The translations under genes were made by a program, and so were the position numbers. Source: Thermodesulfobacteriota bacterium (lineage in GTDB: Bacteria > Desulfobacterota > WTBG01 > CAIYCZ01 > CAIRTM01). From it: a stretch of 64,000 nucleotides of DNA. Positions 1,236-32,961 of this stretch are shown piece after piece. A model generated the notes under the pieces. That model saw nothing but the letters and a program-made list of their open reading frames with translations, did no database searches and was not told the DNA's origin. The DNA lies in assembly GCA_028282925.1 (NCBI GenBank), contig JANQGV010000012.1, positions 7,787 through 71,786 on the forward strand. Direction: 5' to 3'. The first letter of the stretch is position 1. Every line of letters starts with the position of its first letter.

Positions 1236-1277
1236 GAAATCCCCAAATCGTCTGCTGCGATTTGGGGATTTTTTTAT
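1236..1277 (+). terminator. Rho-independent terminator, expression platform of riboswitch 1
   Basis: Hairpin ATCCCCAAATCG-tctgctg-CGATTTGGGGAT followed by TTTTTTT, 20 nt before the btuF start codon. Confidence 0.6.
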
Positions 1278-1295
1278 GCAACAAACAGTTGAGCT

Positions 1296-5517: not shown

Positions 5518-5523
5518 AGATAT

Positions 5524-10707: not shown

Positions 10708-10849
10708 CACAGCGCCGCATATAACTTTAGTTGTATGTGAAAAACACACCCTACGTTATATTGACGGCGGGATGCAGGGTGTGAGATACTACAGAAGTAA
10801 TAAAAAGCATATAACCGGGTGCCTTACCGGAAGGATCTTGCGATACTGA

Positions 10850-11045
10850 TCAATATCCCTCGGGTAAGCAAATAGGGAAAACGGTGCAAATCCGTTGCGG
10901 ACCCGCCGCTGTAACCCTGTCCTTTTGTGCGATTTGCAAAAAAGGAACCCTTTGGCCGTAATGCCACTGTTCCGATAGGGCGGAATGGGAAGGTGGTCAA
11001 AGGGGCTGGGAAGCCAGAAGACCTGCCCGGGTAATGAGATCCCAA
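10850..11045 (+). promoter_or_regulatory. Cobalamin riboswitch, copy 2
   Basis: AATAGGGAAAACGGTGCAAATCCGTTGCGGACCCGCCGCTGTAACC, ATGCCACTG...GGGAAGGTGG, and B12 box GAAGCCAGAAGACCTGCCCGG. A close paralogue of copy 3. Confidence 0.8.
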
Positions 11046-11093
11046 TCGGCTTTCGTGGACTAAAGCCTGCCGGGAAACAATCGGGATGAAAAC

Positions 11094-11136
11094 GGAATCC
11101 CTGCGTGAAAAGGCACGCAGGGATTCTTTTATTTTA
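11094..11136 (+). terminator. Rho-independent terminator, expression platform of riboswitch 2
   Basis: AATCCCTGCGTG-aaaagg-CACGCAGGGATT followed by CTTTTATTTT, about 17 nt before ATG 11153. Confidence 0.55.
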
Positions 11137-11152
11137 AGGGGAGTACGGTATT

Positions 11153-12991: not shown

Positions 12992-13104
12992 TGTATTCAT
13001 AACTATAATTATCAACAAACGAAAGGGGGTGATAGTACTGAAAAGAAACAACCGGTTTTTTTTACTTCCAATAACTCATGTACAGATAAAGGAGATACAT
13101 CACT

Positions 13105-16005: not shown

Positions 16006-18420
16006 TTATGATTCCTGCTGTTGCGGCTCGTCTCCGTTTAAGACGGTGCGGGCAATGGTAACCGCCCCTTGAGCGTCAGGGGCATAGTAATCGGATTTGA
16101 TCATATCGGCTGTTTCGGGGTTTAATACAGCGCCGCCCACCATTACAACGCAGGGGAGCTGTTCCTGCCGTAAAGCTGCAATGGTTTCTTCCATGCTTTG
16201 CACCGTTGTGGTCATCAGGGCGCTCAAACCGACCAGCCGTATATTTTCAGAGCGCACTTTCGCAACAATCTCATCCGGCGCTACATCCTTGCCCATATCG
16301 ATCACATCATATCCGTAGTTTTCCAGCAGCACTTTTACAATATTTTTACCAATGTCGTGAATATCTCCTTTAACGGTTGCCAGCAATACCTTCCCACGGC
16401 TGAGTGATTCTCCTCCTTCACGGCTGACCTGCTCTTTGATGACTGCAAATGCCTCTTTTACGGTTTCAGCCGACTGGATCAGCTGGGGCAGGAACAGGTC
16501 CCCCTGCTCATAGCGCTTGCCTACTTCGTCAAGGGCCGGCATCAGCTGTTTTTCAACAATGTCCATGGGTGCCTCGGTACGAAGCAGTTTACGAGTGGCA
16601 GAAGCGGCAGTTTCACGCAAACCGTTGATAACAATCATGCGCAGTCCGTCGACACCGGATGCTCCGGTATCGCCGGAGGAGCCTTTAGCGGAAGACGGAA
16701 CCGGGGCCTTTGTGCCGGCATATGCGTCGATAAAACTGCGGGATTCACGGTCGTGACCGGCCAGGACCCGCCAGGCGGCAATGCTTTCCATCATGCCGGT
16801 TGACAGCGGATTCATGATAGGAGCGTCAATGCCCACCGCAAGAGCCATTGCCAGATAGGTACGGTTAAGAATATCCCGGCGGGGCAGACCGAACGATACA
16901 TTGCTGACTCCCAGGACAGTGCACACGCCGAGACCCTCCTTAACCATCCGAATGGCCTTCAGGGTTTCGGCAACGGCCGCCTGCTGGGCGGACGCGGTCA
17001 GCACCAGGCAGTCTATCAGCACGTTCTCCCGGGGAATGCCGGCATCCTGCGCTGCTGCGACAATCCTTTCGGCAATAGCGAACCGCTCACGGGCTGTTTC
17101 AGGTATTCCGGCCTCATCAAGAGTGAGTCCCAGGATACAGGCCCCGTATTTTTCGGCAATGGGTAAAATAGACTCAAGCGACTGTCGTTCGCCGTTAACG
17201 GAGTTAATCAGAGGTTTGCCGTTATATATCCGTGCGCCGGCTTCGATTACTTCCGGGCTGGTGCTGTCGATCTGCAGGGGCACATCCACAACCGATTGCA
17301 CCTCGCGTATAAGCCGTATCATCATTGCCTGCTCGTCGACCTCGGGCAATCCGCAGTTGATATCAAGGATATGCGCCCCGGCATCACGCTGGCTGATTGC
17401 TTCTCCAAGGATACTGTCAATATTATCGGTGCGCAGGGCCTCTTGAAGCTTTTTCTTTCCGGTCGGGTTTATACGCTCACCGATGATGGTGATATCATCG
17501 CCGATGATATGCGTTCTGGCGGCCGACGTTACAGTCGTTTTCCGCGGTACCCGTGGTACGGGTGGTTTCTGGTCGGCAACAGCCGAGCGGGAAGCCCTGA
17601 TGTACTCAGGGTCGGTCCCGCAGCATCCGCCCAGAATCCTCACGCCCTTTTGCACCATGTGCCGCACGTGGGAGGCAAATTCATCGGGGCGCATGGGAAA
17701 AACGGTTTGGCCGTCCTGCAGGAGCGGCATGCCTGCATTGGGCTGGACGATTACCGGTACATGTGCGGTGGACAGAAACTGCTCGATAATGGGCAGCATC
17801 TCTTTCGGGCCCAGGGAGCAGTTGACCCCCAGCACGTCGGCACCAAGCCCCTCCAGGACGGTAGCGGCCGTTACCGGATCGGTTCCGGTCAGGGTGCGCC
17901 CGTCCTGCTGAAATGACATGGTGCAGACAACCGGCAGGGTGGAATTTTCTTTTGCCGCAAGCACGGCTGCTTTGGCCTCAAGCAGGTCGGTCATGGTTTC
18001 GATAATCACCAGATCCGCACCAGCCGAAGCACCGGCACGTATTTGCCGGGCGAACATGTCATAGGCCTCTTCAAACGACAGGGTTCCGAGGGGCTGCAAC
18101 AGCTGTCCGATAGGCCCGATATCAAGGGCCACGAGCGCGCCTTCGACCCGGCGGGCTATTGCCACGGCCTGTTCTATGCTCTGCTCAACGGTAAGTCCTG
18201 AGCCCTTCAGCTTATACTCATTGGAGCTGAAAGAGTTGGTGGTAAGAATATCAGCCCCGGCATCTGCATACTGGCGGTAAATGTCGGCTACTATGTCGGG
18301 GCTCTCGAAATTGACCAGCTCGGGAAAATCTCCCACCTTGAGGTTCGCCCGCTGCAGCATGGTACCCATTGCTCCGTCAAAAAAGAGCAGGTTGCCGGAC
18401 GAGATCAGTTCACGAAACAC
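16006..18420 (-). CDS. metH: Cobalamin-dependent methionine synthase core (homocysteine S-methyltransferase, pterin-binding and B12-binding domains; no C-terminal reactivation domain). Likely GTG start at 18420
   Basis: N-terminal Hcy-binding domain LLFFDGAMGTMLQ...GGCCGT, pterin-binding domain INCGLPEVDE, and B12-binding DxHxxG motif VKGDIHDIGKNIVKVLLENYGYDVIDMG. The ORF-track start at 18519 would overlap the upstream gene by 110 nt. Confidence 0.85.
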   Translation of the reverse strand: MFRELISSGNLLFFDGAMGTMLQRANLKVGDFPELVNFESPDIVADIYRQYADAGADILTTNSFSSNEYKLKGSGLTVEQSIEQAVAIARRVEGALVALDIGPIGQLLQPLGTLSFEEAYDMFARQIRAGASAGADLVIIETMTDLLEAKAAVLAAKENSTLPVVCTMSFQQDGRTLTGTDPVTAATVLEGLGADVLGVNCSLGPKEMLPIIEQFLSTAHVPVIVQPNAGMPLLQDGQTVFPMRPDEFASHVRHMVQKGVRILGGCCGTDPEYIRASRSAVADQKPPVPRVPRKTTVTSAARTHIIGDDITIIGERINPTGKKKLQEALRTDNIDSILGEAISQRDAGAHILDINCGLPEVDEQAMMIRLIREVQSVVDVPLQIDSTSPEVIEAGARIYNGKPLINSVNGERQSLESILPIAEKYGACILGLTLDEAGIPETARERFAIAERIVAAAQDAGIPRENVLIDCLVLTASAQQAAVAETLKAIRMVKEGLGVCTVLGVSNVSFGLPRRDILNRTYLAMALAVGIDAPIMNPLSTGMMESIAAWRVLAGHDRESRSFIDAYAGTKAPVPSSAKGSSGDTGASGVDGLRMIVINGLRETAASATRKLLRTEAPMDIVEKQLMPALDEVGKRYEQGDLFLPQLIQSAETVKEAFAVIKEQVSREGGESLSRGKVLLATVKGDIHDIGKNIVKVLLENYGYDVIDMGKDVAPDEIVAKVRSENIRLVGLSALMTTTVQSMEETIAALRQEQLPCVVMVGGAVLNPETADMIKSDYYAPDAQGAVTIARTVLNGDEPQQQES

Positions 18421-19084
18421 AGTGTTCTCCTTTCTTTCTATAGAGACATCGCCGGGCTTTTTTACACCCTTCACACCCTGTGCGTGCTTCCGGTGCAAGT
18501 CCGGTGAGTATCCCGACAATTGCGGTTACTGATTTACGAGGCACAAGCAAACACGTATCAGTTGTTGAAACGCCTATGCGGCGGTGGATATCAAGCAATT
18601 GTGCAATATTCGGTTGAATCTGAAGAGGCAGGTCGCCATATCCCGGGCTGAAGCGATGTGTGATATGCAGTCTCTTCTTTTCGGCATATTTTTGCAGTTC
18701 TTCTTCAACACGATCACATACATACTCCACTGCAACCGTCGCGCAGGCGTCCAGCACTATGGTGTCGGCCATGCTTTTTTTGCTTATGCGCGTAAGTAAC
18801 GCGTCAACCCCGGCGCCGATGGTTGCCGCCATAAGCGCGCACTGCACTGCCGAACCCAGATGACCCTTTATGTCCTCTCCCGGCAGCATCAGCACGCCTT
18901 CGCCTATGCGGCAGCCTTCTTCGTTTGCTGTTACATCGAACAGGCCGTAGGTATACCGGGGTGTTGCCGACGCAATCAGCATTTCCGACATGTGTTCAAT
19001 TTGCCGGGTCAGCCGTTCGTCTACAGCCTGCTCACGCCTTCCGAGATACCGGAGCACTTCTGCAAAATCTATGTGAAGTTTCAC
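18410..19084 (-). CDS. Standalone methionine synthase activation (AdoMet-binding reactivation) domain protein
   Basis: 224 aa with RFSPGYGDLPLQ, comparable to the RxxPGYP region of the MetH activation domain. Located immediately upstream of, and overlapping, the truncated metH. Confidence 0.6.
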   Translation of the reverse strand: MKLHIDFAEVLRYLGRREQAVDERLTRQIEHMSEMLIASATPRYTYGLFDVTANEEGCRIGEGVLMLPGEDIKGHLGSAVQCALMAATIGAGVDALLTRISKKSMADTIVLDACATVAVEYVCDRVEEELQKYAEKKRLHITHRFSPGYGDLPLQIQPNIAQLLDIHRRIGVSTTDTCLLVPRKSVTAIVGILTGLAPEARTGCEGCKKARRCLYRKKGEHCVS

Positions 19085-24414: not shown

Positions 24415-26454
24415 CTAAAATTTACAGGAGCACTTCACCCAATACGCGCGTTCGGGACCGGCGTCGGCATTGTGCTGTTCGTATTCCTCGTCGGTCAGGT
24501 TGGTCACGACCGCCTTGATGTTAAGGCGGTCAAACAGATCGAGTTGCACCGTCAGATCGGCAATGGTGAAAGCGTCCATTTCGAGAAGATTTTTTGTCAT
24601 GCGGTCCTGATAGAACATGCTGTCGGTGAAGCGCACGTCAAGTGCCGTGGTAAGAACGGCCCGGGGTGCAATGCGATGCACCGTTTGTACTCCGGCATTT
24701 ACGCGGTGCAGCGGTGTATCTCCCAGGCGGCCCTGCTCCTTATCAACTGCGTGGGTATAGGTGTAGTTTGCATAGCCCTTGAGCCAGCTGACGGGTGATA
24801 CTTCCAGGCCGACCTCAAACCCGTCGGTTTCAATTTTGTTGACGTTTTCATACCGCATAACCCCGTTTGTTATGACCGCTGTTATCAGGTCCTCGGCGTC
24901 GGTGTAAAATGCAGTCAGCTTGAATGAGGCATTTTTGTGAATTTTAACTGAAATGCCGAGATCATAGGACCAGATCACTTCGGGGTCGAGGTCCGGGTTC
25001 GACATGAAGGGTACACCGGGTATCATCTGCCAGGTCGGCTGGTGCAGTTCGGTCAGAGTGGGTGCACGAAAGGCACGACCTATGGACCCGCGTATCTGTA
25101 TGCGATCGTTAAGCCGGTACAGTATTCCCATCTTGGGAGAAAAGGAACTTTCCGATTCCGAGTTTGCATCAAAACGGCCACCGAGAGTGACGGTCAAACG
25201 CTCAAATAATTCAATCTCATGCTGCAGGTACAGGGCCTGGGTTGTCATGTCCTCATCCATGGTCCTGTCGATAACACGGCCGTCGCTACCGCGGTTTTTC
25301 CAGTAGGCCTCTTTGAAGTTCAGATCAATCCCGGCCGTCAAAAAGCTCGTGCATGACAGGGGCGTGGCCGCCTTGAGCTGCAGGCCGGTGTCGCGGCCCC
25401 AGTAATCCTGGTCTCCGTACTCATATGAATAACGCGAACCGAAAAACCCCTGATGTTCAACCATGTTTTCATCATCCGTTTCCGTACGGTCATAATTGGT
25501 GTAGAGGCGGGTTTCGAGTTCCAGTTCGTCAAACAGCAGTGTTTGTGCGGTCAGATTCAGGTAGTACAGCGTACGGTTCATGTTTCTGTCGCGTTCACGG
25601 GGAAGGTGGGTTGTCCTGCCCATGCCGGTGTCGCTTTCGGTATAGCCGCCGCTGAGCATCAGGGTCGTACGGTCGGACACCTGGTAATCGAGGCGGCCTG
25701 CAAAACGCCGGTCACGGAAAACTGCGTTAACTGTGTCGGTCTCCCTGGTGGTAAAGCCGCCGGAAAAAGGATTGTAAGAATACTTAACACGCCTGTCGGT
25801 GCGATAATGATTGCGTATGGAGCGGTATCCGGCGTTTATGCTGCCTGAAAGGCGATCTTTTTTAGCTTCCAGTCGAATGCCGGCTTCCCGGAACCCATCG
25901 CTTCCGGCGCTTATATAGGGCATCTCGCTGCGCCCCTCCATGGTACGCTTTTTGGTGATGATATTAATAACACCTCCCATGGCATTACTGCCGTAGAGGG
26001 CCGAAAACGCACCTTTGACGACTTCAATCCGTTCAATTGTTTCCGGTTGAATAATGCCCGGGATAACAAACCCCGTCAGGGCTGAATTGATCGGCATGCC
26101 GTCAACCATATACAGGACCCGGTTTGCACCGCTCACCCCCCGTATCGAGGTGCTCATGGGAAAGGTAACGGTCATGTCCGACGAGCGGGTCATCTCAACG
26201 CCGCTGAATCTACGGAGCATATCATCAATGTTGCTTGTCGGGGCGGCCTTGATATCTTGCGCGCTGAGTATTTCAACGTCGGCGGTGACCTCATCAAGAG
26301 ATTTTTCACCCCGGGTTGCGGTAACCACTACCTCATCAAATCGATATGCGGTGCTTCCGGTGCCAGGAGTAGACTGTGCTGTAGCGGTCATAGGGGAAAT
26401 GATCTGTAGCAGTACAATAGCGTTGAGTAGGGCGAGGGTGGTTTTCTTCATCAT
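24415..26454 (-). CDS. TonB-dependent outer-membrane receptor (second BtuB-like), riboswitch-controlled. True start MMKKTT at 26454
   Basis: Signal peptide MMKKTTLALLNAIVLLQIISPMTATAQ, TonB box DEVVVTATR, plug motifs (IRGVSGANRVLYMVDGMPIN, GGVINIITK), C-terminal F. RBS AAGGAG and a terminator hairpin lie just upstream of 26454, so the 26541 start in the ORF track is an in-frame read-through. Confidence 0.85.
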   Translation of the reverse strand: MMKKTTLALLNAIVLLQIISPMTATAQSTPGTGSTAYRFDEVVVTATRGEKSLDEVTADVEILSAQDIKAAPTSNIDDMLRRFSGVEMTRSSDMTVTFPMSTSIRGVSGANRVLYMVDGMPINSALTGFVIPGIIQPETIERIEVVKGAFSALYGSNAMGGVINIITKKRTMEGRSEMPYISAGSDGFREAGIRLEAKKDRLSGSINAGYRSIRNHYRTDRRVKYSYNPFSGGFTTRETDTVNAVFRDRRFAGRLDYQVSDRTTLMLSGGYTESDTGMGRTTHLPRERDRNMNRTLYYLNLTAQTLLFDELELETRLYTNYDRTETDDENMVEHQGFFGSRYSYEYGDQDYWGRDTGLQLKAATPLSCTSFLTAGIDLNFKEAYWKNRGSDGRVIDRTMDEDMTTQALYLQHEIELFERLTVTLGGRFDANSESESSFSPKMGILYRLNDRIQIRGSIGRAFRAPTLTELHQPTWQMIPGVPFMSNPDLDPEVIWSYDLGISVKIHKNASFKLTAFYTDAEDLITAVITNGVMRYENVNKIETDGFEVGLEVSPVSWLKGYANYTYTHAVDKEQGRLGDTPLHRVNAGVQTVHRIAPRAVLTTALDVRFTDSMFYQDRMTKNLLEMDAFTIADLTVQLDLFDRLNIKAVVTNLTDEEYEQHNADAGPERAYWVKCSCKF

Positions 26455-26486
26455 GTGTACAAGCTCCTTATCTTCTGGTGATGCAA

Positions 26487-26525
26487 TAAAAAATCCCCGG
26501 GACGACATGCAGTCGTCCCGGGGAT
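26487..26525 (-). terminator. Rho-independent terminator, expression platform of riboswitch 3 (hairpin flanked by A-run and T-run)
   Basis: ATCCCCGGGACGAC-atgc-AGTCGTCCCGGGGAT with a T-run downstream on the minus strand, between the aptamer and the receptor start codon. Confidence 0.55.
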
Positions 26526-26589
26526 TCCGTTTTTTATCCACGGTCTGGTATTACATGTCCCTGTTTCCCGAGGGCATGTAACGCTTTTT

Positions 26590-26780
26590 ATCCATACAGG
26601 CAGGTCTTCTGGCTTCCCTGCCCTCTGGCCGCCTTCCCATTCCGACACATCGGAACAGTGGCATGCCAGGCCAAAGGGTTCCCTTTTCTACATCAATAGA
26701 CAAGGGTTGGGTTACAGCGGCGGGTCCGCGACGGTTTTGCACCGGCTTCCCTATTAAGCCACACTGTGGCGCCTGTATTT
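26590..26780 (-). promoter_or_regulatory. Cobalamin riboswitch, copy 3 (minus strand)
   Basis: The reverse complement reads AATAGGGAAGCCGGTGCAAAACCGTCGCGGACCCGCCGCTGTAACC ... ATGCCACTGTTCCGATG ... GGGAAGGCGGCC ... GGAAGCCAGAAGACCTGCCTG. Near-identical in core to copy 2. Confidence 0.8.
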
Positions 26781-26851
26781 AATTGTATGTGCCGGGAGCG
26801 CGTGCTCTCCGGTGTAAACACAGCCGTTTATAAAAGGCTATGTGTTTTTTT

Positions 26852-28774
26852 TTAATCCTGCAGCCGATCACGTACGGCGCTTTCTATAGATGTCGCTTCT
26901 ATGTGCGACAGTTTGACATATTCAGCCTGGGAGGCTTCGGCCAGCTTTTTTGCCAGGCCCAGGGAAAGAAAATCATCCTCGGCATCAAGGACAACAAGCC
27001 GAATGCCGGCAAGGGTGAGCTGCCTGGCAAAATCCACGGCCTCGTCAAACGGAGTCGTTTCTGTCCGTGCATAGGGCACATTGGCCTTCCCGTCGCTGAG
27101 GAGCGCAATCATTATTTCAACGTCCGGGTCGCGCTGCCGGATTTGATGAGCCAGTTCCAGCCCACCTGCAAGGCCGTGAGCAAGCGGTGTTCTTCCGCCG
27201 GTGGGCAGTTCTTTGAGGTGTTCATGGGCCAGGTCGACATTGTCGGTCGGCTGAAGCAGCACCTCATGCCGGTCGTCGCGAAAAGCGAGCAATGCCACGC
27301 GGTTGCGCTTGACGTAGGCGTCCTGAAGCAGGGCAAGGGCCGCCCCTTTGGCGGCTGCCATCCGTTCAGATGCGGCCATGCTGCCGCTGGCGTCAACTGC
27401 AAGAATAACCGTGGTTCCCGCGGACTGGGTACGCTGTTTTGCTCTGATGTGGTCGGGCCGTATATGGACGACATCATTGGACGCACAGTCCATCTGGTCC
27501 GGAGCTGCGGCCCGCAGGGTGGCATCAAGGGCGATGTCGCTGCTGGAAACAGGCCCATGGGGCTCTACGGCGCGTGCTGCGCGGCCACGTCGTCCCGGTG
27601 CCGTGGTTTTTGTGCGTTTACCGCTTGATGATGCATGCTTTGGGCGTGCCTCAGTTGCAGAAAGGGTGACATCAGGCGTTTGCCCGATCTCAAATGTTCG
27701 GTCCGGGGGTGCTTCCTGCTGCAGATCGTCGGGAGCGTTTTCGGACTGCTGCTCTTGATTTTTTTCAGGCTGCTGCAGCGCGTCGTCGATTTTGTCCGGG
27801 TCGAGGCGGCTCTCTTCAAACGGCCGCCTCCGCATACGATGTGAAATCGACATCAAGGCAGCCTTTTTGATGTCATCCTCGGATACCTGTTCTCTGCCGT
27901 CAAAGGCGGCCAGGGTCAGGGCGGCACGTGTCATTACAATATCGGCCCGGTGCGAACGCACATCCAGCTCAATGCAGATTCGGGCAGCAAGCTGTATAAG
28001 TTCTTCGCTGATGGTCACCCGGGGGAGCAGCGTGCAGGCGGCACGTATATCCCGGGCGAGGTTTTGCTGCTGCTGTTGAAAACGGTCGGCAAACGCAGCA
28101 GGATCGTTTTCCCAGGCTATGCGGTTCCTGACAATCTCGGTGCGCTCGCCGATATCCATAAGAGCCCCGGCGTCAACACACAGCGAAAACCGGTCAAGGA
28201 GCTGTGGCCGCAGGTCGCCTTCTTCAGGATTCATGGTGCCGATCAGCAGGAAGCGGGCAGGGTGGGTAAAACTCAACCCCTCGCGCTCAACTGTGTTAAC
28301 CCCCATGGCCGCCGCATCAAGCAGCAGGTCCACGATATGATCGTCAAGCAGGTTCACCTCATCGATATACAGGATGCCCCGGTGTGCCGCGGCAAGCACG
28401 CCGGGTTCAAAACGGCGTTTACCGTGTTTCAGAGCATACTCTACATCGAGGGTTCCGGCCACCCGGTCCTCGGTGGCATTGGCCGGTAGCGTTATCACCG
28501 GCATAGGGCGCATTGCCGGGCGGATTTCACCGGTCGCCGAGCAATGAGGACATTCGGGCATGGGGCTGTCCGGGCTGCAGTTGAACGGGCAGCCTTCTGC
28601 TGTCTCAATTTCCGGGAGCAACTCGGCCAGCGCACGGGCCAGAGTGGATTTTGCGGTACCCTTTTCGCCCCGGATCAACACCCCGCCGATAGCGGGATTG
28701 ATTGCATTTAGAATCAGGGCCTCTTTCATCTGCGGTTGCCCTGTAATGGCGGTAAAAGGATACTGAGTCGTCAT
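26852..28774 (-). CDS. Class I chelatase ATPase/vWA subunit: Mg-chelatase ChlI-like AAA+ domain fused to a ChlD-like vWA domain
   Basis: Walker A GEKGTAKST, AAA+ box GILYIDEVNLL, Ser/Pro/acidic linker, C-terminal vWA with the MIDAS motif in ILAVDASGSM. Overlaps cobN by 4 nt. Confidence 0.85.
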   Translation of the reverse strand: MTTQYPFTAITGQPQMKEALILNAINPAIGGVLIRGEKGTAKSTLARALAELLPEIETAEGCPFNCSPDSPMPECPHCSATGEIRPAMRPMPVITLPANATEDRVAGTLDVEYALKHGKRRFEPGVLAAAHRGILYIDEVNLLDDHIVDLLLDAAAMGVNTVEREGLSFTHPARFLLIGTMNPEEGDLRPQLLDRFSLCVDAGALMDIGERTEIVRNRIAWENDPAAFADRFQQQQQNLARDIRAACTLLPRVTISEELIQLAARICIELDVRSHRADIVMTRAALTLAAFDGREQVSEDDIKKAALMSISHRMRRRPFEESRLDPDKIDDALQQPEKNQEQQSENAPDDLQQEAPPDRTFEIGQTPDVTLSATEARPKHASSSGKRTKTTAPGRRGRAARAVEPHGPVSSSDIALDATLRAAAPDQMDCASNDVVHIRPDHIRAKQRTQSAGTTVILAVDASGSMAASERMAAAKGAALALLQDAYVKRNRVALLAFRDDRHEVLLQPTDNVDLAHEHLKELPTGGRTPLAHGLAGGLELAHQIRQRDPDVEIMIALLSDGKANVPYARTETTPFDEAVDFARQLTLAGIRLVVLDAEDDFLSLGLAKKLAEASQAEYVKLSHIEATSIESAVRDRLQD

Positions 28775-31700
28775 GGATGTAATCCCTCCAGGTCGGTTTC
28801 CAGACCCATGTAGATTTCTTTCAGCCGTTCAATTGTTTCTTCATCGGGCTTCCAGTAGCCGCGGCTGTTTGCTTCCCAGAGGCGTTTGACGATTTCCAGC
28901 ATAGCATAGGGGTTGTTGCCCTTGATGCGCTCGCGCATGGCATCGTCAAAAACAAGGCGGCGGTTTACCTGGTCGAAGTTTTCCTGGCTGACCGCGCCGG
29001 TCGTAGCTGCAAGCCCGATCAGGTTTTCCATTCGTTTGGCAATTTCCTGGCCGCCATGATGGCTGTGAGAAAGCATGCCGTCAAGCCACGCCGGGTTGGT
29101 CAGCCGGGTATGTACGCCCCGGCTGATGGAATCTTTTACGTCTTCGGTGCGCACCCGGCCCTCATGGGTGTCGGAAATAACCATCATTGCTTTTTTGCCT
29201 GAGGCCTGTTCCACGCTGCACGCAAGACCTCCGAAAAATTCGTAATAATGGTCAAGGTCGGTCACTTCGTAGTCCCGGGAAGCTCGGACCTGACTGACGA
29301 CCTCCACCCGGCTGAGGTTGTCGGTTAGAAGGCCGACCATCTCCTTGCCGTAGTGGTTCGGCGTATAGGCATGCTTAAGGCTCTCGATATAGGCCCCGAC
29401 AAGATCGGTCTCTTCCTGCCAGGTGCGTTTTTTAACAATTTGCTCAACCCCGGTGCCGTACTCCGATGCGGCCGGACCAAAAAGCCGTGCAAGGGCAAAC
29501 TCCCGGGCTTCCGGTTCCGACATACCGCGCTCCCGCAGGCCGTTAAAGAGTAATCGTGCATTGGCTCGTACGCTGTTCATGTCATCGGGCTCGTCGGCAA
29601 AACCGGCCAGCTCAAAAGCCTTTTGTAAAAGCGAAAGGGTGCCCGGAAACATGTCGCGGAAGAAACCGCACATCTGGATTGTTACGTCAATCCGCGGGCG
29701 GCCCAGCTCTTCAAGGGGAATCAGCTCAAGCCGGGGCTCCCACTGTCCGTCGATGCTTTTTACGCGCACGCCCAGGCAGGTCAAAATTTGCCCGATGGTT
29801 TCTCCCTGTGTTTGGGAGGTTTCCAGCCCCCAGAGAATAAGGGCAGTGGTGCCGGGGTATCTCCCATGGTCTTCCCGGTAGCGGGCAAGGGTGTTTTCCG
29901 CAATAGCCGCACCGCTCTCAAGGGCCGAAGGGGAAGGTACATTCCGGGGGTCAAACTGTACAAGGTTGCGGCCCGAAGGCAGTATTTCAGGGCTGCGAAA
30001 AAGGTCTCCGCTGAGCCCGGGAGGAATATACCGGCCACTGAGGCAGCGCAGAACAGCATCGAGCTCGCCGTTATATGCCAGGGCCTTGGCGATTGCATCA
30101 CCACGGCGGATGTAGTCTTTGAAGTAATCACAGTCGGCAGAGTCGCTCTTGTCAAGCGGCAGACCGTGGATGATGTGGTCGGCTATCCACTGCCGCACCA
30201 TGGCATTCAGCCGTTCCCATTGCGTGGTATGACGATGCGGCTCGCTGCTGAGGATTTTCCAGTCGAAGCCCCGGTGATGTGCCAGAAGCTCAGGGAGTGC
30301 CGGGGCGCCGTTGGTGCTGTGACGGAAAATCTCCGTCAGGTAGCCGACGATTTCCTCCTCGCCGTACCCGCTCCCCAGGGTGTGCAGGCGCGATGGAATG
30401 AGCGCAGTATCAAGCTCGTGCAGGCGCTGGTGCACCGCGTCCAGACCGGACCATTCCCAGCCAAGGTCCATGGTCCGGGACTGAATATCCTCGAGGATAA
30501 CCGGGCAGCGGCCCGGGCTGAGGTTTTCGGCTTCGGCATGCTCGTCAAGCAGTTGGCGGAGGGTCAGCAGGTCGTCATACAGGGCGCCTTTTACAAACGG
30601 GGGCGGCAGGTGCCCTATCAAAACAGCATGGGAGCGCCTCTTGGCTATCATGGCCTCGGATGGGTTGCCGGTGTAATACAGGTACAGATGCGGTAGATCG
30701 TTGATCAGGGCATCCGGAAAGCAGTCTCTGGATGCGGCCTTTTCTTTGCCGGGTAGAAATTCAAGGGTCCCGTGGGTGCCGACATGCACCACCGCGTCGG
30801 CACGAAACTCACGTTCGATCCAGCGATAGAATACGGCATACTGATGGTGGGGCGGCACGGACTTGTCGTGGTATGCATTGTTGCCTGAATCCATGGTTTC
30901 ACGGGCAGGCTGCAGGCCGATAAAAACATTGCCGTTTACGATTCCCGGCAGAACAACTGCTTCGCCGCTGTTCATAACGGTACCTGGAAACGGCCCCCAT
31001 GACTGTTCGATGCGGTCGAGTACGGTCAGGTCCGCAGTCAGCTTCCGGTATGCGTTTTTATCAACGGTGATATGGTTGTCCCTGTTTCGGTTGTTCCAGG
31101 TCGTCGAATTGTTCGTGCCTCCGCCGACAAAGACATCTCTGAGCTCTTCAGCGCTCATGGGAGACGCGGTGTAACCTGCATCTGCAAGCTTTTCAAGTAG
31201 AGCGGAGATGGAGGCAAAGGTATCGAGAAACGATGCGCTGCCCACGGTTGCCTCGCCGGAGGGGTAGTTATAGAAGACAACGGCAAGCCTCTTGTCGCTG
31301 TTGGGCCGGTTTCGGAGGACGGCCCAGTTTTGCGAACGGTGTGCCAGCCTTTCAATGCGGTCGTCAATGGGCGCAAGCTCGGGGGTCTGGTCCTGGGGGG
31401 TGCCCACCGCGCCGAGGGGATACATCTCGACGGCACCGTCGAGCTCGGGCAGGAAAATCGAGATCAGAAATTCGCCGACGTCGGCCCCCTTGTTGTCTTG
31501 CAGCCATTGGGTGCAGGTGCGTTTGGTGAGAAAAAAGGGGTGGAGCACCGGCACGTTCAGGTCGCGCAGAAACCGCTCGCCCTGAACGGCATCACCGCCC
31601 ATGGGGCCCTGTGCCAGCCTGAACGATTCGGGATTGACCAGCACGTCGATAAGGGGCTTGCCGTCGGGCATCAGGAGCTTATACAATTTACTGAAATCGC

Positions 31701-32520
31701 GGCCCACCGTGCTGTCCATGGCTATGGGAATAACGTTAAACCCCGGGGAGAGCCGCTCCATAACACGGCTGATAACCGGGTGGGTGTCCAGGGGGTAGGT
31801 GCGCGAACGAAAAAAAAGGCCCAGGCCGGGTTTGGTTTCCTCAGGCGGGAAACTTTCGTGGTAGTGACTGATGCTTTTGAAAATTCTGCCGCTTGCCGGA
31901 TCCATTATTGAGCAGTCATCTATCACGGCAGGCGGCTTCGGTTTGGGGAAATCCTTGTAACCGAAATATTCGCGCCCGATGAGGTACAGCATGTTTTCAA
32001 TATTGATCCGGGTGCCGTACAGCCAGTATTTGCTGATCCAGAGGAAATTGCGCATGTCCCGCAGGGGACCGACCGGAATCGCCCGCCCGACTTTTTCCAT
32101 CCACTCGACCATTTTCATCATGCGGGCAGGATCACGAGGAGCTTTTTTTTCGGAATCGTCTTTTTTGTCCACGTCCATGCGGCGCATCATATTGAGAGAA
32201 AAGCCGCCCAGCCTGGTGAGGGAACGCACGGCGACCGAGGTTGCGTTGACCACCACAACGTGACCCTTGAAGTCCGCAATACCTTCTGCCAGGGCGTTGC
32301 CGAATGCATCGGGAACGCCCATGGTATCCAGCAATACAAGATCGCTCTGGTAGAGGCTCTGGAAAATGGCCGGCCAGGTTTCCTCGCTGAGAAAATCGCT
32401 GCCCACATAGTGGGTGCTCACCTCGCAACGGCCCGCCCAGGGTCCATCGGCCCATGTGCGGCAGCTTTTTTCGATTTCAATAATGGAGGATGCGCCGACG
32501 GCGATTATACAGAGTTTCAT
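28771..32520 (-). CDS. cobN: CobN/Mg-chelatase H-family large chelatase subunit (cobaltochelatase CobN-like)
   Basis: 1249 aa, a size typical of the family, with CobN/ChlH-wide conservation (NPSEAMIAKRR, HGTLEFLPGK). Riboswitch 4 and a terminator lie upstream. Confidence 0.85.
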   Translation of the reverse strand: MKLCIIAVGASSIIEIEKSCRTWADGPWAGRCEVSTHYVGSDFLSEETWPAIFQSLYQSDLVLLDTMGVPDAFGNALAEGIADFKGHVVVVNATSVAVRSLTRLGGFSLNMMRRMDVDKKDDSEKKAPRDPARMMKMVEWMEKVGRAIPVGPLRDMRNFLWISKYWLYGTRINIENMLYLIGREYFGYKDFPKPKPPAVIDDCSIMDPASGRIFKSISHYHESFPPEETKPGLGLFFRSRTYPLDTHPVISRVMERLSPGFNVIPIAMDSTVGRDFSKLYKLLMPDGKPLIDVLVNPESFRLAQGPMGGDAVQGERFLRDLNVPVLHPFFLTKRTCTQWLQDNKGADVGEFLISIFLPELDGAVEMYPLGAVGTPQDQTPELAPIDDRIERLAHRSQNWAVLRNRPNSDKRLAVVFYNYPSGEATVGSASFLDTFASISALLEKLADAGYTASPMSAEELRDVFVGGGTNNSTTWNNRNRDNHITVDKNAYRKLTADLTVLDRIEQSWGPFPGTVMNSGEAVVLPGIVNGNVFIGLQPARETMDSGNNAYHDKSVPPHHQYAVFYRWIEREFRADAVVHVGTHGTLEFLPGKEKAASRDCFPDALINDLPHLYLYYTGNPSEAMIAKRRSHAVLIGHLPPPFVKGALYDDLLTLRQLLDEHAEAENLSPGRCPVILEDIQSRTMDLGWEWSGLDAVHQRLHELDTALIPSRLHTLGSGYGEEEIVGYLTEIFRHSTNGAPALPELLAHHRGFDWKILSSEPHRHTTQWERLNAMVRQWIADHIIHGLPLDKSDSADCDYFKDYIRRGDAIAKALAYNGELDAVLRCLSGRYIPPGLSGDLFRSPEILPSGRNLVQFDPRNVPSPSALESGAAIAENTLARYREDHGRYPGTTALILWGLETSQTQGETIGQILTCLGVRVKSIDGQWEPRLELIPLEELGRPRIDVTIQMCGFFRDMFPGTLSLLQKAFELAGFADEPDDMNSVRANARLLFNGLRERGMSEPEAREFALARLFGPAASEYGTGVEQIVKKRTWQEETDLVGAYIESLKHAYTPNHYGKEMVGLLTDNLSRVEVVSQVRASRDYEVTDLDHYYEFFGGLACSVEQASGKKAMMVISDTHEGRVRTEDVKDSISRGVHTRLTNPAWLDGMLSHSHHGGQEIAKRMENLIGLAATTGAVSQENFDQVNRRLVFDDAMRERIKGNNPYAMLEIVKRLWEANSRGYWKPDEETIERLKEIYMGLETDLEGLHP

Positions 32521-32583
32521 ATTGCTATTATGGTGCGTGTGTTTTTCAATAACTCAATGTATGTCGGAGAATGCAGCAAAAAA

Positions 32584-32625
32584 AATCCCCAAATCGAGTG
32601 CGATTTGGGGATATCCCTTTTTTTA
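32584..32625 (-). terminator. Rho-independent terminator, expression platform of riboswitch 4. The stem is identical to the riboswitch-1 terminator stem
   Basis: ATCCCCAAATCG-agtg-CGATTTGGGGAT flanked by A/T runs. The same 12-nt arms occur at 1243-1275. Confidence 0.55.
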
Positions 32626-32689
32626 TCCTCAAAACTGTGTATTTATTCCGGAATACCACTTTGCCATGTCGGTACGCCGATAAACTATT

Positions 32690-32835
32690 CAAGCAGGTCT
32701 TCTGACTTTCGGATCATCCTAGTTACCGCGCCTTCCCATTCCGGTGAGCCGGAACAGTGGCTTCGCTACGGTTTTCGTCCCCGATTACAGCGGCGGGCCC
32801 GTACCCGAATTTCACGGGATTCCCTTTAACGCTTT
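32690..32835 (-). promoter_or_regulatory. Cobalamin riboswitch, copy 4 (minus strand), paralogue of copy 1
   Basis: The reverse complement contains ACGGGCCCGCCGCTGTAATCGGGGACGAA (29 nt identical to copy 1), GCCACTG...GGGAAGGCGCGG, and B12 box AAGTCAGAAGACCTGC. Confidence 0.8.
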
Positions 32836-32961
32836 TCAGCGCGCTTGAATACCTATTTTAATCACTTTAGCAAAATGGGGGGAAAAGTCAAGATGTATGG
32901 ATTTTTGCCAAAAAACATGCGTGCTGAAGAACAGCAGTGTGCGATTAAAAAGAATTTCCGG

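What the first reader, a model, noticed from the sequence alone, without database searches (positions are those of the whole stretch)
26852..32835. CobN plus a fused ChlI/ChlD chelatase operon under a B12 riboswitch in an apparently anaerobic genome
CobN-type class I chelatases belong to the aerobic (late cobalt insertion) pathway, yet this genome context (AOR, sigma-54, ThyX, split MetH) looks strictly anaerobic. The operon is also paired with uptake systems, not biosynthesis genes. Riboswitch-regulated orphan cobN-chlID loci have been noted in comparative genomics as unexplained. Possible roles include cobalt insertion during corrinoid salvage or remodelling, or metal handling for another tetrapyrrole.
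Basis: partly seen in the sequence, partly recalled or inferred. Interest (0 to 1): 0.5.

Follow-up and report, generated by a model that had tools for sequence, protein, structure and literature searches.

The report
B12-repressed ATP-driven chelatase operon, anaerobe type
A vitamin-B12-sensing RNA switch controls two genes for an ATP-powered enzyme that puts a metal (probably cobalt) into a B12-like ring; this enzyme type is common in oxygen-avoiding microbes and sits next to uptake genes, and nobody has yet measured what it does.

Summary
A cobalamin riboswitch (32675-32863, minus strand) with a promoter-like site and an intrinsic terminator precedes two overlapping genes. One is a 1249-aa CobN/ChlH-superfamily large subunit. 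The other is a 640-aa protein that joins a ChlI-type AAA+ ATPase to a ChlD-type VWA/MIDAS domain. A second riboswitch and a TonB-dependent receptor follow, and the closest relative keeps this order.

The large subunit is not a canonical aerobic CobN. It scores below every CobN model cut-off. It sits in its own clade (100/100 bootstrap), apart from CobN, BchH and HmuS references. Its third active-site residue is His, as in ChlH and HmuS, where CobN has Asp.

The clade is common in Clostridia, Desulfobacterota, Chloroflexi, spirochaetes and methanogens. It usually lies in operons with BtuFCD-type importers and ChlI/ChlD, and sometimes beside anaerobic cbi genes, including cbiK.

Rodionov and colleagues predicted such B12-regulated cobN-chlID sets in 2003. 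A Dehalobacter homologue operon is strongly induced by corrinoid starvation.

My best reading is a B12-starvation-induced, ATP-driven cobalt chelatase coupled to uptake; its substrate is unknown. It is a new member of a known but uncharacterised kind, of moderate interest.

Side result: a BtuG-like B12-binding propeller elsewhere in the window.

The parts
32864..32891 (-). Sigma-70-like promoter (TTGACT, 16-nt spacer with TG, TAAAGT) just upstream of the riboswitch
   Evidence: Consensus scan, 9 of 12 matches; sequence read. A pattern match only, not shown to function.
32675..32863 (-). Cobalamin riboswitch aptamer (RF00174) controlling the chelatase operon
   Evidence: Rfam 100.4 bits against gathering score 31.5, E 6.5e-24, full model 1-189. 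Aligns with the three other riboswitches in the window.
32577..32612 (-). Intrinsic terminator, the riboswitch expression platform: 12-bp stem AUCCCCAAAUCG...CGAUUUGGGGAU followed by U8
   Evidence: Terminator scan, sequence, and hairpin present in both the MFE and centroid folds. It lies 57 nt upstream of the start codon.
28771..32520 (-). Large chelatase subunit, 1249 aa, CobN/ChlH superfamily, anaerobe-type clade. Predicted catalytic residues H583, E587, E622 and H1091; clade-specific E593, H611, D1088 and H1155. No TM helix or signal peptide.
   Evidence: Pfam PF02514, E=0. NCBIfam BchH 850 against 829 cut-off; CobN 572 against 822. PDB ranking ChlH > CobN > HmuS. Tree and bootstrap. Residue mapping. 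Hydropathy.
26852..28774 (-). Motor/adaptor subunit, 640 aa. ChlI-type AAA+ module with Walker A GEKGTAKST, Walker B ILYIDEVN, RPQLLDRF, and a Cys4 insertion (CPFNC...CPHC, about residues 62-79). Then an acidic/Pro linker and a ChlD-type VWA domain with MIDAS DASGS. Translationally coupled to the large subunit (ATGA overlap).
   Evidence: Pfam. NCBIfam TIGR02442 'putative cobaltochelatase' 754 against 779 cut-off, aligned 1-640/641; BchI model covers residues 5-322. PDB ChlI/BchI E about 1e-95 and BchD VWA. Translation. Alignment with separate ChlI and ChlD subunits.
26582..26791 (-). Second cobalamin riboswitch, 60 nt downstream of the chlID stop codon, controlling the receptor gene
   Evidence: Rfam 92.5 bits, E 1.2e-21. 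No strong terminator between the chlID stop and this aptamer, so read-through from the chelatase operon is possible; this is inference.
26483..26526 (-). Intrinsic terminator, expression platform of the second riboswitch (15-bp GC-rich stem plus T run)
   Evidence: Sequence; the same hairpin is listed by the scan on the opposite strand.
24415..26454 (-). TonB-dependent outer-membrane receptor (plug plus barrel) of the B12/haem-receptor type. True start is at MMKKTT with a signal peptide. Syntenic partner of the chelatase operon.
   Evidence: Pfam Plug and TonB_dep_Rec. NCBIfam best models are TonB-hemin and TonB-B12, both below cut-off. Start and signal peptide. 65% identical to the receptor after cobN-chlID-riboswitch in L001, and only 21% identical to the window's other receptor.

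Best explanation
The locus is a two-gene operon for a cytoplasmic class I (AAA+-driven) tetrapyrrole metal chelatase, switched on when the cell runs short of B12.

Shown from sequence:
- A promoter-like site is followed by a cobalamin riboswitch whose expression platform is an intrinsic terminator. Corrinoid-replete cells should therefore stop transcription before the genes.
- The large subunit carries the universal class I catalytic His/Glu residues.
- The second protein supplies both the ATPase motor (ChlI-type AAA+ with intact Walker A/B and arginine finger) and the adaptor (ChlD-type VWA with MIDAS) in one chain.
- The pair is followed by its own riboswitch-controlled TonB-dependent receptor, and the closest relative keeps this order.
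- Across the clade the chelatase genes sit in operons with BtuFCD-type importers.

Inferred:
- The enzyme uses ATP to insert Co2+ into a cobalt-free tetrapyrrole or corrinoid, raising corrinoid supply during starvation.
- Its substrate is probably something brought in by the linked uptake systems, not the hydrogenobyrinic acid a,c-diamide of a complete aerobic pathway.

It works like CobN-ChlID cobaltochelatases but belongs to a separate clade with a ChlH-like active site. Metal, substrate and direction are unproven.
For: - Domain identity and completeness.
- Riboswitch, promoter-like site and terminator. Gene overlap.
- Intact ATPase and MIDAS motifs, and an I-type Cys4 insertion.
- Catalytic H583/E587/E622/H1091 conserved in 76-80 of 80 clade members.
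- Synteny riboswitch-cobN-chlID-riboswitch-receptor in L001, with the receptor 65% identical.
- Among 69 bacterial clade members, 48 have ChlI/D and 43 have FecCD-type ABC components in the same directon. 36 of 80 loci hold at least one cobalamin riboswitch.
- Neighbours point to corrinoid metabolism and metal insertion: CbiK, CbiD, CbiG, corrin methylases and CbiA nearby; genes whose N-termini I read (no family search) as cbiP, cbiB, cobO and cobD directly after cobN in L008; COG0523/CobW-type metallochaperones next to cobN in Bacillales loci.
- Experimental data from a relative. Dehalobacter restrictus operon-2 (riboswitch, Fep/Btu-type transporters, two CbiZ, CobN, Mg-chelatase subunits) rose 346-fold in mRNA and 46-fold in protein on corrinoid starvation, in a strain that cannot make the corrin ring (PMC4285132).
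- Rodionov 2003 proposed ChlI/ChlD as subunits of a CobN-dependent cobaltochelatase (quoted in PMC9227772).
Against: - No member of this clade has been assayed.
- The active site is ChlH/HmuS-like (His1091; NPSEA and LEFLPGKE motifs), not CobN-like (Asp; DPGEG, LEWLPGK). The substrate may therefore be porphyrin-like rather than a corrin.
- In anaerobic-pathway organisms every intermediate after sirohydrochlorin already holds cobalt, and natural sources of metal-free corrinoids in anoxic habitats are poorly documented (my own knowledge).
- Some loci co-transcribe a cytoplasmic CbiK (L030), so a second cobalt chelatase looks redundant.
- The Bacillales subclade has no B12 riboswitch and none was detected in the archaeal loci, so the B12 link is not universal in the clade.
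- The rest of the source genome was not available.
Confidence: 0.52

Rival explanations
1. It is an ordinary late-insertion cobaltochelatase, equivalent to CobNST with ChlID replacing CobS/CobT. [quoted passage not shown]
For: - The partner resembles TIGR02442 'putative cobaltochelatase' over its full length.
- Aerobic bacteria such as Ralstonia and Spirosoma pair CobN with the same kind of hybrid protein.
- B12 riboswitch control.
- L008 places cobN directly before genes that look, from their N-termini, like cbiP, cbiB, cobO and cobD, the steps after cobalt insertion.
Against: - Every CobN equivalog model scores far below its cut-off (best 622 against 1468; TIGR02257 572 against 822).
- The clade splits from five CobN references in 100/100 bootstraps.
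- CobN's Asp (Brucella D1100) is His here.
- No cobW, cobG or cobF in the window.
- The lineage and context look anaerobic.
- Clade members sit beside cbiK, cbiD and cbiG, which mark the early-insertion route.
Confidence: 0.1
2. It removes or exchanges the metal of imported metallo-tetrapyrroles, in the manner of the HmuS haem dechelatase. This would recover cobalt or iron, or a usable macrocycle, under B12 limitation.
For: - HmuS shows that the superfamily includes dechelatases (PMC12583661).
- His at the ChlH-H1174 position is shared with HmuS.
- The linkage to a TonB-dependent receptor and to ABC importers resembles hmu/btuS loci.
- Exported CbiK-like proteins occur in some loci (L006, L016).
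Against: - The protein has no TM anchors or signal peptide (KD19 maximum 1.3, against 3.0 for the HmuS-like reference) and so faces the cytoplasm.
- It is translationally coupled to an intact AAA+/VWA motor, which HmuS lacks; HmuS needs NADH rather than ATP.
- It is the most distant of the three PDB families (345 bits).
- COG0523 metallochaperones beside Bacillales members fit metal delivery.
- Enzymatic removal of cobalt from a corrin is unknown (my own knowledge).
Confidence: 0.12
3. It is a class I chelatase for a different metal or macrocycle (Ni, Fe or Zn; a sirohydrochlorin- or porphyrin-type ring). The B12 riboswitch would reflect only indirect co-regulation in this lineage.
For: - Invariant clade-specific extra His/Glu residues (E593, H611, H1155), absent from CobN, and absent from BchH and HmuS apart from H611, which HmuS shares.
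- BchH-like motifs.
- The Bacillales subclade has no riboswitch and none was detected in the archaeal loci.
- Published statements that archaeal and anaerobe CobN homologues have unclear function.
Against: - In the window's own subclade the riboswitch sits directly upstream: window, L001, L002 and L069 immediately, L006 and L052 at the head of the operon.
- Neighbours are corrinoid genes.
- The nickel chelatase of F430 synthesis is the class II CfbA (PMC8179277 abstract).
Confidence: 0.14
4. It is a magnesium chelatase H subunit, as NCBI's pipeline names its relatives.
For: - TIGR02025 BchH scores 850.3 against a cut-off of 829.
- ChlH is the top PDB match.
- It has the ChlH-type H/E/H triad.
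- Relatives are labelled 'magnesium chelatase subunit H'.
Against: - True BchH references lie in bchB-H-L-M clusters. No bch gene lies in the window or beside clade members.
- Hosts are mostly non-phototrophs: Desulfobacterota, Clostridia, methanogens.
- A grouping with BchH gets 11% bootstrap.
- The operon is B12-regulated.
Confidence: 0.02

Closest known systems
B12-regulated CobN plus ChlI/ChlD 'putative cobaltochelatase' sets (Rodionov et al. 2003 prediction; NCBIfam TIGR02442; Dehalobacter restrictus operon-2, Dehre_0287)
   Same: A CobN-superfamily large subunit sits next to a ChlI/ChlD-type AAA+/VWA partner behind a cobalamin riboswitch, often with Fep/Btu-type transporters. The Dehalobacter operon is induced by corrinoid starvation.
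   Different: Here the system is reduced to two genes, with one I/D hybrid instead of separate ChlI and ChlD. It is paired with a TonB-dependent receptor rather than an ABC importer. TIGR02442 scores just below its cut-off (754 against 779). No biochemical function has been shown for any of these sets.
Aerobic cobaltochelatase CobNST (Pseudomonas denitrificans, Brucella melitensis; EC 6.6.1.2)
   Same: Same three functional modules (catalytic large subunit, AAA+ motor, VWA adaptor), the same H...E catalytic pair with 39-residue spacing, and B12-related regulation.
   Different: About 26-28% identity and a separate clade at 100% bootstrap. The partner is ChlI/D-type, not CobS/CobT. His replaces Asp at the third metal-site position. 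No cobW, cobG or cobF nearby.
Magnesium chelatase H subunit (ChlH/BchH; Synechocystis 4ZHJ)
   Same: Best PDB and NCBIfam match. Identical catalytic set (ChlH H621/E625/E660/H1174 corresponds to H583/E587/E622/H1091). Shared NPSE..IAKRR and LEF.PGK motifs. The partner AAA+ module is ChlI-like.
   Different: About 30% identity and not sister in the tree (11%). No bch gene context, a non-phototrophic host and riboswitch control by B12. Clade-specific E593, H611 and H1155 differ from BchH's Q, N and E.
HmuS/BtuS haem dechelatase of Bacteroidota (PDB 9D26)
   Same: Same superfamily fold. His at the position of ChlH H1174. Genomic linkage to a TonB-dependent receptor.
   Different: HmuS is membrane-anchored and faces the periplasm, has no AAA+/VWA partner and does not need ATP. 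The window protein is soluble and cytoplasmic with a coupled motor. HmuS is the most distant of the three solved families.

Membership tests
Class I (ATP-dependent) tetrapyrrole chelatase, large-subunit superfamily (Pfam PF02514) | Full-length match to the CobN/Mg-chelatase domain | tested here: met
   PF02514, E=0, 1043 bits, profile 2-1090/1090.
Class I (ATP-dependent) tetrapyrrole chelatase, large-subunit superfamily (Pfam PF02514) | Conserved catalytic His and Glu residues (ChlH H621, E625, E660; Brucella CobN H554, E593) | tested here: met
   H583, E587 and E622 are present, with the H-to-E spacing of 39 seen in all references, and are invariant in 80/80 clade members.
Class I (ATP-dependent) tetrapyrrole chelatase, large-subunit superfamily (Pfam PF02514) | AAA+ motor and VWA/MIDAS adaptor partner encoded alongside | tested here: met
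   The 640-aa protein has Walker A and B, an arginine finger and MIDAS DASGS, and overlaps the large-subunit gene by 4 nt.
Aerobic cobaltochelatase CobN (CobNST, EC 6.6.1.2) | Score above the curated cut-off of a CobN equivalog model | tested here: not met
   TIGR02257 572 against 822; NF004646 622 against 1468; the other CobN models score lower still.
Aerobic cobaltochelatase CobN (CobNST, EC 6.6.1.2) | Groups with characterised-type CobN sequences in a phylogeny | tested here: not met
   Neighbour-joining tree of 93 sequences over 1226 columns. The window clade separates from five CobN references in 100/100 bootstraps, and the CobN references form their own 100% group.
Aerobic cobaltochelatase CobN (CobNST, EC 6.6.1.2) | Asp at the third metal-site position (Brucella CobN D1100) | tested here: not met
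   His1091 here (76/80 in the clade), against Asp in all five CobN references. The correspondence to Brucella D1100 holds to within one residue, judged from the 9uk9 alignment range.
Aerobic cobaltochelatase CobN (CobNST, EC 6.6.1.2) | CobS/CobT partners and cobW/cobG/cobF in the genome | tested here: inconclusive
   None in the 64-kb window, and the partner is ChlI/D-type. The rest of the genome was not available.
Aerobic cobaltochelatase CobN (CobNST, EC 6.6.1.2) | [quoted passage not shown] | not testable with these tools
   Needs an enzyme assay.
Magnesium chelatase H subunit (BchH/ChlH) | Score above the TIGR02025 cut-off | tested here: met
   850.3 against 829, a marginal pass.
Magnesium chelatase H subunit (BchH/ChlH) | Groups with BchH/ChlH in a phylogeny | tested here: not met
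   The split 'window clade plus BchH' appears in only 11/100 bootstraps.
Magnesium chelatase H subunit (BchH/ChlH) | Encoded with (bacterio)chlorophyll genes in a phototroph | tested here: not met
   No bch genes in the window. True BchH references lie in bchB-H-L-M clusters. The nearest relatives are Thermodesulfobacteriota MAGs.
ChlID-type 'putative cobaltochelatase' (NCBIfam TIGR02442) | Full-length architecture (ChlI-like AAA+ plus VWA) and a score above cut-off | tested here: inconclusive
   Aligned over 1-640/641, but 754.3 bits against a cut-off of 779.45. The architecture is confirmed.
ChlID-type 'putative cobaltochelatase' (NCBIfam TIGR02442) | Adjacent to cobN or to B12/cobalt genes | tested here: met
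   Overlaps the CobN-like gene and lies behind a cobalamin riboswitch.
HmuS/BtuS haem dechelatase | N- and C-terminal membrane anchors and periplasmic location | tested here: not met
   No hydrophobic segment (maximum 19-residue Kyte-Doolittle mean 1.31, against 2.97 in the HmuS-like reference).
HmuS/BtuS haem dechelatase | hmu-type operon without an AAA+/VWA partner (receptor, ExbB-like genes) | tested here: not met
   A receptor is adjacent, but the gene is coupled to an AAA+/VWA protein. Compare the B. finegoldii locus.
HmuS/BtuS haem dechelatase | HmuS-specific haem ligands (Met-79, His-254) and the Met-rich insertion | not tested
   Not mapped residue by residue. My Bacteroides reference is a BtuS/HmuS-like paralogue, not the solved protein.
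Cobalamin riboswitch (Rfam RF00174) | Covariance-model score above the gathering threshold over the full model | tested here: met
   100.4 bits against 31.5, model positions 1-189/189.
Cobalamin riboswitch (Rfam RF00174) | Ligand-dependent repression of the downstream genes | not testable with these tools
   A terminator-type expression platform is present. The response to corrinoids needs an experiment. A homologous operon in D. restrictus does respond.

The most novel reading that the evidence does not exclude
The clade is a fourth functional class of class I chelatase, beside CobN, ChlH and HmuS. It would be a cytoplasmic, ATP-driven salvage chelatase that metallates, or re-metallates, tetrapyrroles or corrinoids imported through dedicated B12-riboswitch-controlled receptors and ABC importers. 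Anaerobes, including corrin-ring auxotrophs, could then turn cobalt-free or wrongly metallated corrinoids from their surroundings into usable cobamides. The ChlH-like His1091 and the clade-specific E593/H611/H1155 would define its distinct metal site.
Probability: 0.22. Interest if true: 0.7.

Novelty: new member of a known kind. Interest (0 to 1): 0.4.

Why it matters
CobN homologues in strict anaerobes and archaea have been an open annotation problem since 2003. A 2025 survey of the superfamily still says most of these sequences cannot be assigned a function.

Pipelines name this clade inconsistently. Relatives here are labelled either 'cobaltochelatase CobN' or 'magnesium chelatase subunit H'. 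Metagenomic surveys also use CobN as a marker of aerobic B12 synthesis, so members of this clade could be mis-scored as aerobic producers.

If the enzyme proves to be a salvage chelatase coupled to uptake, it would add a new step to corrinoid cross-feeding in anoxic communities. This locus is a compact version of the system: two genes, a riboswitch and a dedicated receptor. The residue differences found here (His1091 against Asp; E593, H611, H1155) give concrete mutagenesis targets.

On its own the locus is one more example of a recognised but uncharacterised type.

Tried and rejected
- An exact-protein contig look-up for the CobN-like protein found nothing on record. The cluster look-up gave no name or accession.
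- I looked for a programmed frameshift that could yield a ChlI-sized product from the single chlID gene, as in the fs-chlD genes of PMC9227772. An A7 run (A_AAA_AAT heptamer) lies exactly at the AAA+/linker boundary (residue 338, about 27758-27764 on the minus strand), with a -1-frame stop 22 codons later. It is absent from the closest relatives L001 and L002. I treat it as probably chance.
- My riboswitch detection with a home-made nhmmer profile could have missed divergent copies. Iterating it added only five hits. An Rfam scan of six Bacillales loci found none, so the absence there seems real.
- Rodionov 2003 (PubMed 12869542) is not held in the paper library. Its claims are cited second-hand.
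- I considered and rejected a Mg-chelatase, a canonical CobNST and a periplasmic HmuS-type dechelatase (see rivals).
- I did not model the 1249-aa protein because it exceeds the 1200-residue limit, and a model would not settle the substrate.
- Caveats on my own analysis. My ORF calling in the loci is crude (longest ORFs, greedy choice) and many contigs are cut, so the context counts are lower bounds. The tree is neighbour-joining on Kimura distances, not maximum likelihood.

Full report
**What is there**

The minus strand between 24.4 and 32.9 kb carries eight features in this order:
- a sigma-70-like promoter match (32891-32864)
- a cobalamin riboswitch aptamer (32675-32863; RF00174, 100.4 bits against a gathering score of 31.5)
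- a 12-bp hairpin followed by eight U (32612-32577)
- a 1249-aa ORF (28771-32520)
- a 640-aa ORF (26852-28774) that overlaps the first by ATGA
- 60 nt further on, a second cobalamin riboswitch (26582-26791, 92.5 bits)
- its own GC-rich terminator (about 26526-26483)
- a TonB-dependent receptor, whose real start is the MMKKTT signal peptide at 26454

The large protein is a full-length CobN/Mg-chelatase domain protein (PF02514, E=0). The second protein has a ChlI-like AAA+ module, an AAA lid and a VWA domain. The window holds four cobalamin riboswitches in all. The other two control a btuF-fecCD-ABC-unknown-receptor operon (986-7656) and two unknown secreted proteins (10800-15219). Only the right-hand coordinate needs extending.

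**Organism and context**

The exact protein exists in NCBI on a 95-kb contig, but its genome could not be retrieved. The nearest relatives (68-72% identity) are uncultured Thermodesulfobacteriota MAGs.

One of them, assembly GCA_964621615.1, reproduces two parts of the window. The riboswitch-cobN-chlID-riboswitch-receptor block is on one contig (L001), with the receptor 65% identical. The btuFCD-unknown-receptor block is on another contig (L089).

The window also holds an aldehyde:ferredoxin oxidoreductase, a sigma-54 activator, ThyX, UbiD and a split B12-dependent MetH. That fits an anaerobic Desulfobacterota-type organism. No corrin-ring biosynthesis gene was found among the window's ORFs of 150 aa or more.

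**The small subunit**

The 640-aa protein has:
- Walker A GEKGTAKST
- Walker B ILYIDEVN
- the RPQLLDRF arginine-finger region
- a sensor-2 SHRAD
- an acidic, Pro-rich linker
- a VWA domain with MIDAS DASGS

I aligned it with the separate ChlI (about 345 aa) and ChlD (about 620 aa) proteins of related loci. Its N-terminal module carries the Cys4 insertion (CPFNC...CPHC) that is typical of the ChlI subunits and absent from the ChlD subunits of two-gene systems. Among 56 ChlD-sized genes in the loci, 9 have this insertion. All 9 lie in loci without a separate chlI.

So it is a true I/D hybrid, one chain supplying both motor and adaptor. This is the TIGR02442 'putative cobaltochelatase' architecture (754 bits against a cut-off of 779, aligned end to end), also seen next to CobN in Ralstonia and Spirosoma. 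No second chlI-like gene is in the window.

**The large subunit is neither CobN nor BchH nor HmuS**

*Profile scores.* NCBIfam ranks BchH first (850 against a cut-off of 829). All CobN equivalogs fall far below their cut-offs. In the PDB the order is ChlH (549 bits), then M. tuberculosis CobN (455), then a second CobN entry (9uk9, 428; probably the B. melitensis protein), then HmuS (345).

*References.* I took sequences with clear genomic context from plasmid records:
- two BchH in bchB-H-L-M clusters
- CobN from Paracoccus (cobW-cobN-cobG) and Azotobacter (cobW-cobN-AAA-VWA)
- CobN from Ralstonia and Spirosoma (with a ChlID hybrid)
- Haloferax CobN
- a Bacteroides HmuS/BtuS-like gene next to a receptor and ExbB

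*Tree.* I built a neighbour-joining tree of these with the 85 homologues of at least 1000 aa from the window and the 80 loci (93 sequences, 1226 columns). The window protein falls in a clade of 80 sequences. That clade is split from all references in 100 of 100 bootstraps. The CobN references form their own 100% group. A union of the clade with BchH is recovered only 11 times. Identity to any reference is 25-30%.

**Active site**

Published work names H621, E625, E660 and H1174 as the key residues of Synechocystis ChlH (PMC13297055). It names H554, E593 and D1100 as the cobalt-binding residues of Brucella CobN (bioRxiv 10.64898/2026.07.21.739949).

In the window protein these correspond to H583, E587, E622 and H1091. 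The His-Glu spacing of 39 is identical in all references. The H1091-H1174 equivalence was checked against 4ZHJ numbering, allowing for what I take to be a 20-residue tag (chain 1351 residues). The CobN Asp maps to the same column within one residue.

The first three residues are invariant across the whole superfamily. The fourth is His in BchH, in HmuS and in 76 of 80 clade members, but Asp in all five CobN references.

The flanking motifs are BchH-like (NPSEAMIAKRR, LEFLPGKE), not CobN-like (DPGEG.QAKRR, LEWLPGK).

The clade also has its own near-invariant residues:

| Residue | In the clade | BchH | HmuS | CobN |
|---|---|---|---|---|
| E593 | 80/80 | Q | Q | S/G/T/A |
| H611 | 74/80 | N | H | N/L/V |
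| D1088 | 80/80 | S/T | S | D (L in Paracoccus) |
| H1155 | 77/80 | E | S | K/R |

. These are objective differences from CobN. They do not reveal the metal or the substrate.

**Location**

The protein has no hydrophobic segment (maximum 19-residue hydropathy 1.31). The HmuS-like reference has clear terminal anchors (2.97). Together with the AAA+ partner, this places the enzyme in the cytoplasm.

**Conserved neighbourhood**

A scan of one genome per species returned 80 loci. They come from Clostridia, Bacillales/Paenibacillus, Desulfobacterota, Chloroflexi, spirochaetes, Chitinivibrionales, Methanothrix, ANME-related archaea and Asgard archaea.

I called ORFs, clustered the proteins and marked riboswitches with an nhmmer profile built from the window's four copies. 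The dominant layout is:

[cobalamin riboswitch] - BtuF-like binding protein - FecCD permease - ABC ATPase - CobN-like - ChlI - ChlD

In Clostridia and a few others a 165-215-aa lipoprotein without any Pfam or NCBIfam match follows.

Counts among the 69 bacterial members (lower bounds, given crude ORF calls and cut contigs):
- 48 have ChlI/D in the same directon
- 43 have ABC-importer components in the same directon
- 24 have a riboswitch upstream in the same directon

Counting all 80 loci, 36 hold at least one riboswitch after iterating the profile.

In Gram-negative members the partner is a TonB-dependent receptor: the window, L001, L006, L052, and L064 and L069 with a riboswitch-controlled receptor plus an Opp/Nik-type ABC system. 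A 2x[4Fe-4S] ferredoxin occurs in three loci. It lies between chlD and cobN in two of them (L011, L033).

CbiK-type genes occur in nine loci, and in six they share the directon. Two of the nine carry signal peptides; the others are cytoplasmic. CbiD, CbiG, corrin methylases and CbiA lie next to the operon in several Oscillospiraceae, Treponemataceae and Chitinivibrionales loci. In L008 cobN is followed by genes whose N-termini look like cbiP, cbiB, cobO and cobD; I read these from sequence and did not run a family search.

So the clade coexists with the early-insertion (anaerobic) pathway.

The Bacillales subclade differs. Six loci had no cobalamin riboswitch by Rfam. Four Bacillales loci instead carry COG0523/CobW-family GTPases, and three others a divergent Crp-family regulator. 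No riboswitch was detected in the archaeal loci either.

**Literature**

- Rodionov et al. 2003 proposed ChlI/ChlD as subunits of a CobN-dependent cobaltochelatase. They also set apart a third, BtuS-type CobN relative linked to uptake (quoted in PMC9227772, and PMC6460266).
- In Dehalobacter restrictus a riboswitch-controlled operon encodes Fep/Btu-type transporters, two CbiZ, CobN (Dehre_0287) and Mg-chelatase subunits. It rose 346-fold in mRNA and 46-fold in protein on corrinoid starvation. The strain has a truncated cbiH and needs external corrinoid, and the operon is syntenic with Acetobacterium woodii (PMC4285132).
- HmuS of Bacteroides is a haem dechelatase that does not need ATP. The same paper states that most other bacterial and archaeal members of the superfamily cannot yet be annotated (PMC12583661).
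- I found no assay of any member of the clade described here.

**Most likely mechanism**

*Shown.* The operon is a riboswitch-gated, translationally coupled pair. It encodes a complete class I chelatase with catalytic subunit, motor and adaptor, intact catalytic and ATPase motifs and a cytoplasmic location. It is genomically tied to corrinoid-type uptake.

*Inferred.* At low B12 the terminator does not form. The enzyme is made and uses ATP to insert Co2+ into a cobalt-free macrocycle. The strong linkage to importers, and the Dehalobacter case where ring synthesis is broken, point to an imported substrate rather than a de novo intermediate.

I give this reading about 0.5. The rivals are:
- a different metal or macrocycle (0.14)
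- a dechelatase or metal-exchange role (0.12)
- a standard late-insertion CobN (0.10)
- a Mg-chelatase (0.02)

**Novelty and score**

This is a verified example of a gene set recognised for two decades and annotated in NCBIfam, with no known function. Here I add five points:
- the clade's clean separation from CobN, BchH and HmuS
- its ChlH-type fourth catalytic residue and clade-specific residues
- the I-type nature of the hybrid subunit
- the quantified link to importers
- the coexistence with anaerobic cbi genes

I rate it a new member of a known kind, interest about 0.4.

**Side result**

The 506-aa secreted protein at 3997-5517 lies between the ABC ATPase and the receptor of the first riboswitch operon. 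It has no Pfam or NCBIfam match.

With a 35-sequence alignment AlphaFold gives a confident beta-propeller (mean pLDDT 85). Its best PDB matches are the cobalamin-binding BtuG surface lipoproteins of Bacteroides thetaiotaomicron (8okv, 8bmz, 8bai; E about 1e-13, target TM 0.70-0.76, 16-19% identity).

Homologues in other phyla also sit directly beside a TonB-dependent receptor and behind a cobalamin riboswitch (L089, L091, L093). The 704-aa protein at 13105-15219, behind the window's second riboswitch, is a paralogue. This looks like a BtuG-like family outside Bacteroidota and may deserve its own follow-up.

Noticed in passing
window 3997-5517 (+); paralogue at window 13105-15219 (+); also L089:6001-7497, L091:6001-7302, L093:6001-7254: This is a secreted 506-aa protein with no Pfam or NCBIfam match, encoded between btuFCD-type genes and a TonB-dependent receptor behind a cobalamin riboswitch. 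The AlphaFold model (pLDDT 85) is a beta-propeller. Its best PDB matches are the cobalamin-binding BtuG lipoproteins of Bacteroides (E about 1e-13, TM 0.70-0.76, 16-19% identity). Homologues in other phyla also abut a receptor and have a cobalamin riboswitch upstream. It looks like a BtuG-like B12-capture protein outside Bacteroidota.
   Followed up: yes
window 10800-15219 (+): A cobalamin riboswitch (10800-11044) controls two secreted proteins of unknown function. One is 612 aa (SdrD_B-like and LIC_13355 lipoprotein-like regions only). The other is the 704-aa BtuG-like paralogue. No transporter gene lies in this operon.
   Followed up: partly
L046:16766-17317 and 13 other loci (for example L024, L027, L028, L029, L058, L014, L076): A conserved lipoprotein of 165-215 aa (signal peptide with a Cys lipobox, and a conserved domain of about 140 aa) is the last gene of many PBP-FecCD-ABC-CobN-ChlI-ChlD operons in Clostridia, Dehalococcoidales and Thermoleophilia. 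It has no Pfam or NCBIfam match and is absent from the window.
   Followed up: partly
window 59604-63434 (-), inside a low-GC stretch (about 58-64 kb, GC 0.38-0.42): A SIR2_2-domain protein (298 aa) is followed by a 975-aa protein that matches the C-terminal two-thirds of the PADLOC Dsr1 defence protein (E 4e-57). It looks like a split Dsr1-like anti-phage system in a probable genomic island.
   Followed up: partly
window 27758-27764 (-), codon 338 of the chlID gene: An A7 run (slippery heptamer A_AAA_AAT) lies exactly at the boundary between the AAA+ module and the linker. A -1 shift would stop after 22 codons and give a ChlI-sized product. Similar A7 runs occur in the archaeal hybrids L053 and L071 (and one, earlier in the gene, in L066), but not in the closest relatives L001 and L002. 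Probably chance.
   Followed up: partly
window 28771-32520 (-) and relatives P0004, P0012, P0013: The NCBIfam BchH equivalog model TIGR02025 scores this clade just above its cut-off (850 against 829). Relatives from non-phototrophs are consequently named 'magnesium chelatase subunit H' in NCBI, while JGI calls them 'cobaltochelatase CobN'. This is likely a systematic misnaming.
   Followed up: yes
L036, L038, L047, L061, L068, L073 (Bacillales and Paenibacillus loci); also L031, L077, L041, L055: The Bacillales branch of the clade keeps the PBP-FecCD-ABC-ChlI-ChlD-CobN operon but has no cobalamin riboswitch. Four loci carry COG0523/CobW-family GTPases nearby (three copies in L077) and three carry a divergent Crp-family regulator. 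Regulation, and perhaps function, may differ there.
   Followed up: partly
L003:9717-14000 (-): In a Chloroflexi MAG the cobN-chlID-FecCD-ABC block lies next to genes whose N-termini look NifH-like (fused, 731 aa) and NifD-like (430 aa). This resembles the reductases of tetrapyrrole pathways. Read from the sequence only; not annotated with a profile.
   Followed up: no
window 16006-19084 (-): The B12-dependent methionine synthase is split. An 837-aa core holds the homocysteine, pterin and B12 domains, and a separate 224-aa ORF carries the reactivation domain. The two ORFs overlap as called.
   Followed up: no
L006:5107-6111, L016:17719-18654: CbiK-family proteins in two riboswitch-controlled operons, one of which (L006) also encodes the chelatase, carry signal peptides (a lipobox in L006). 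They are probably exported tetrapyrrole-binding proteins rather than biosynthetic chelatases. Other loci have cytoplasmic CbiK.
   Followed up: partly
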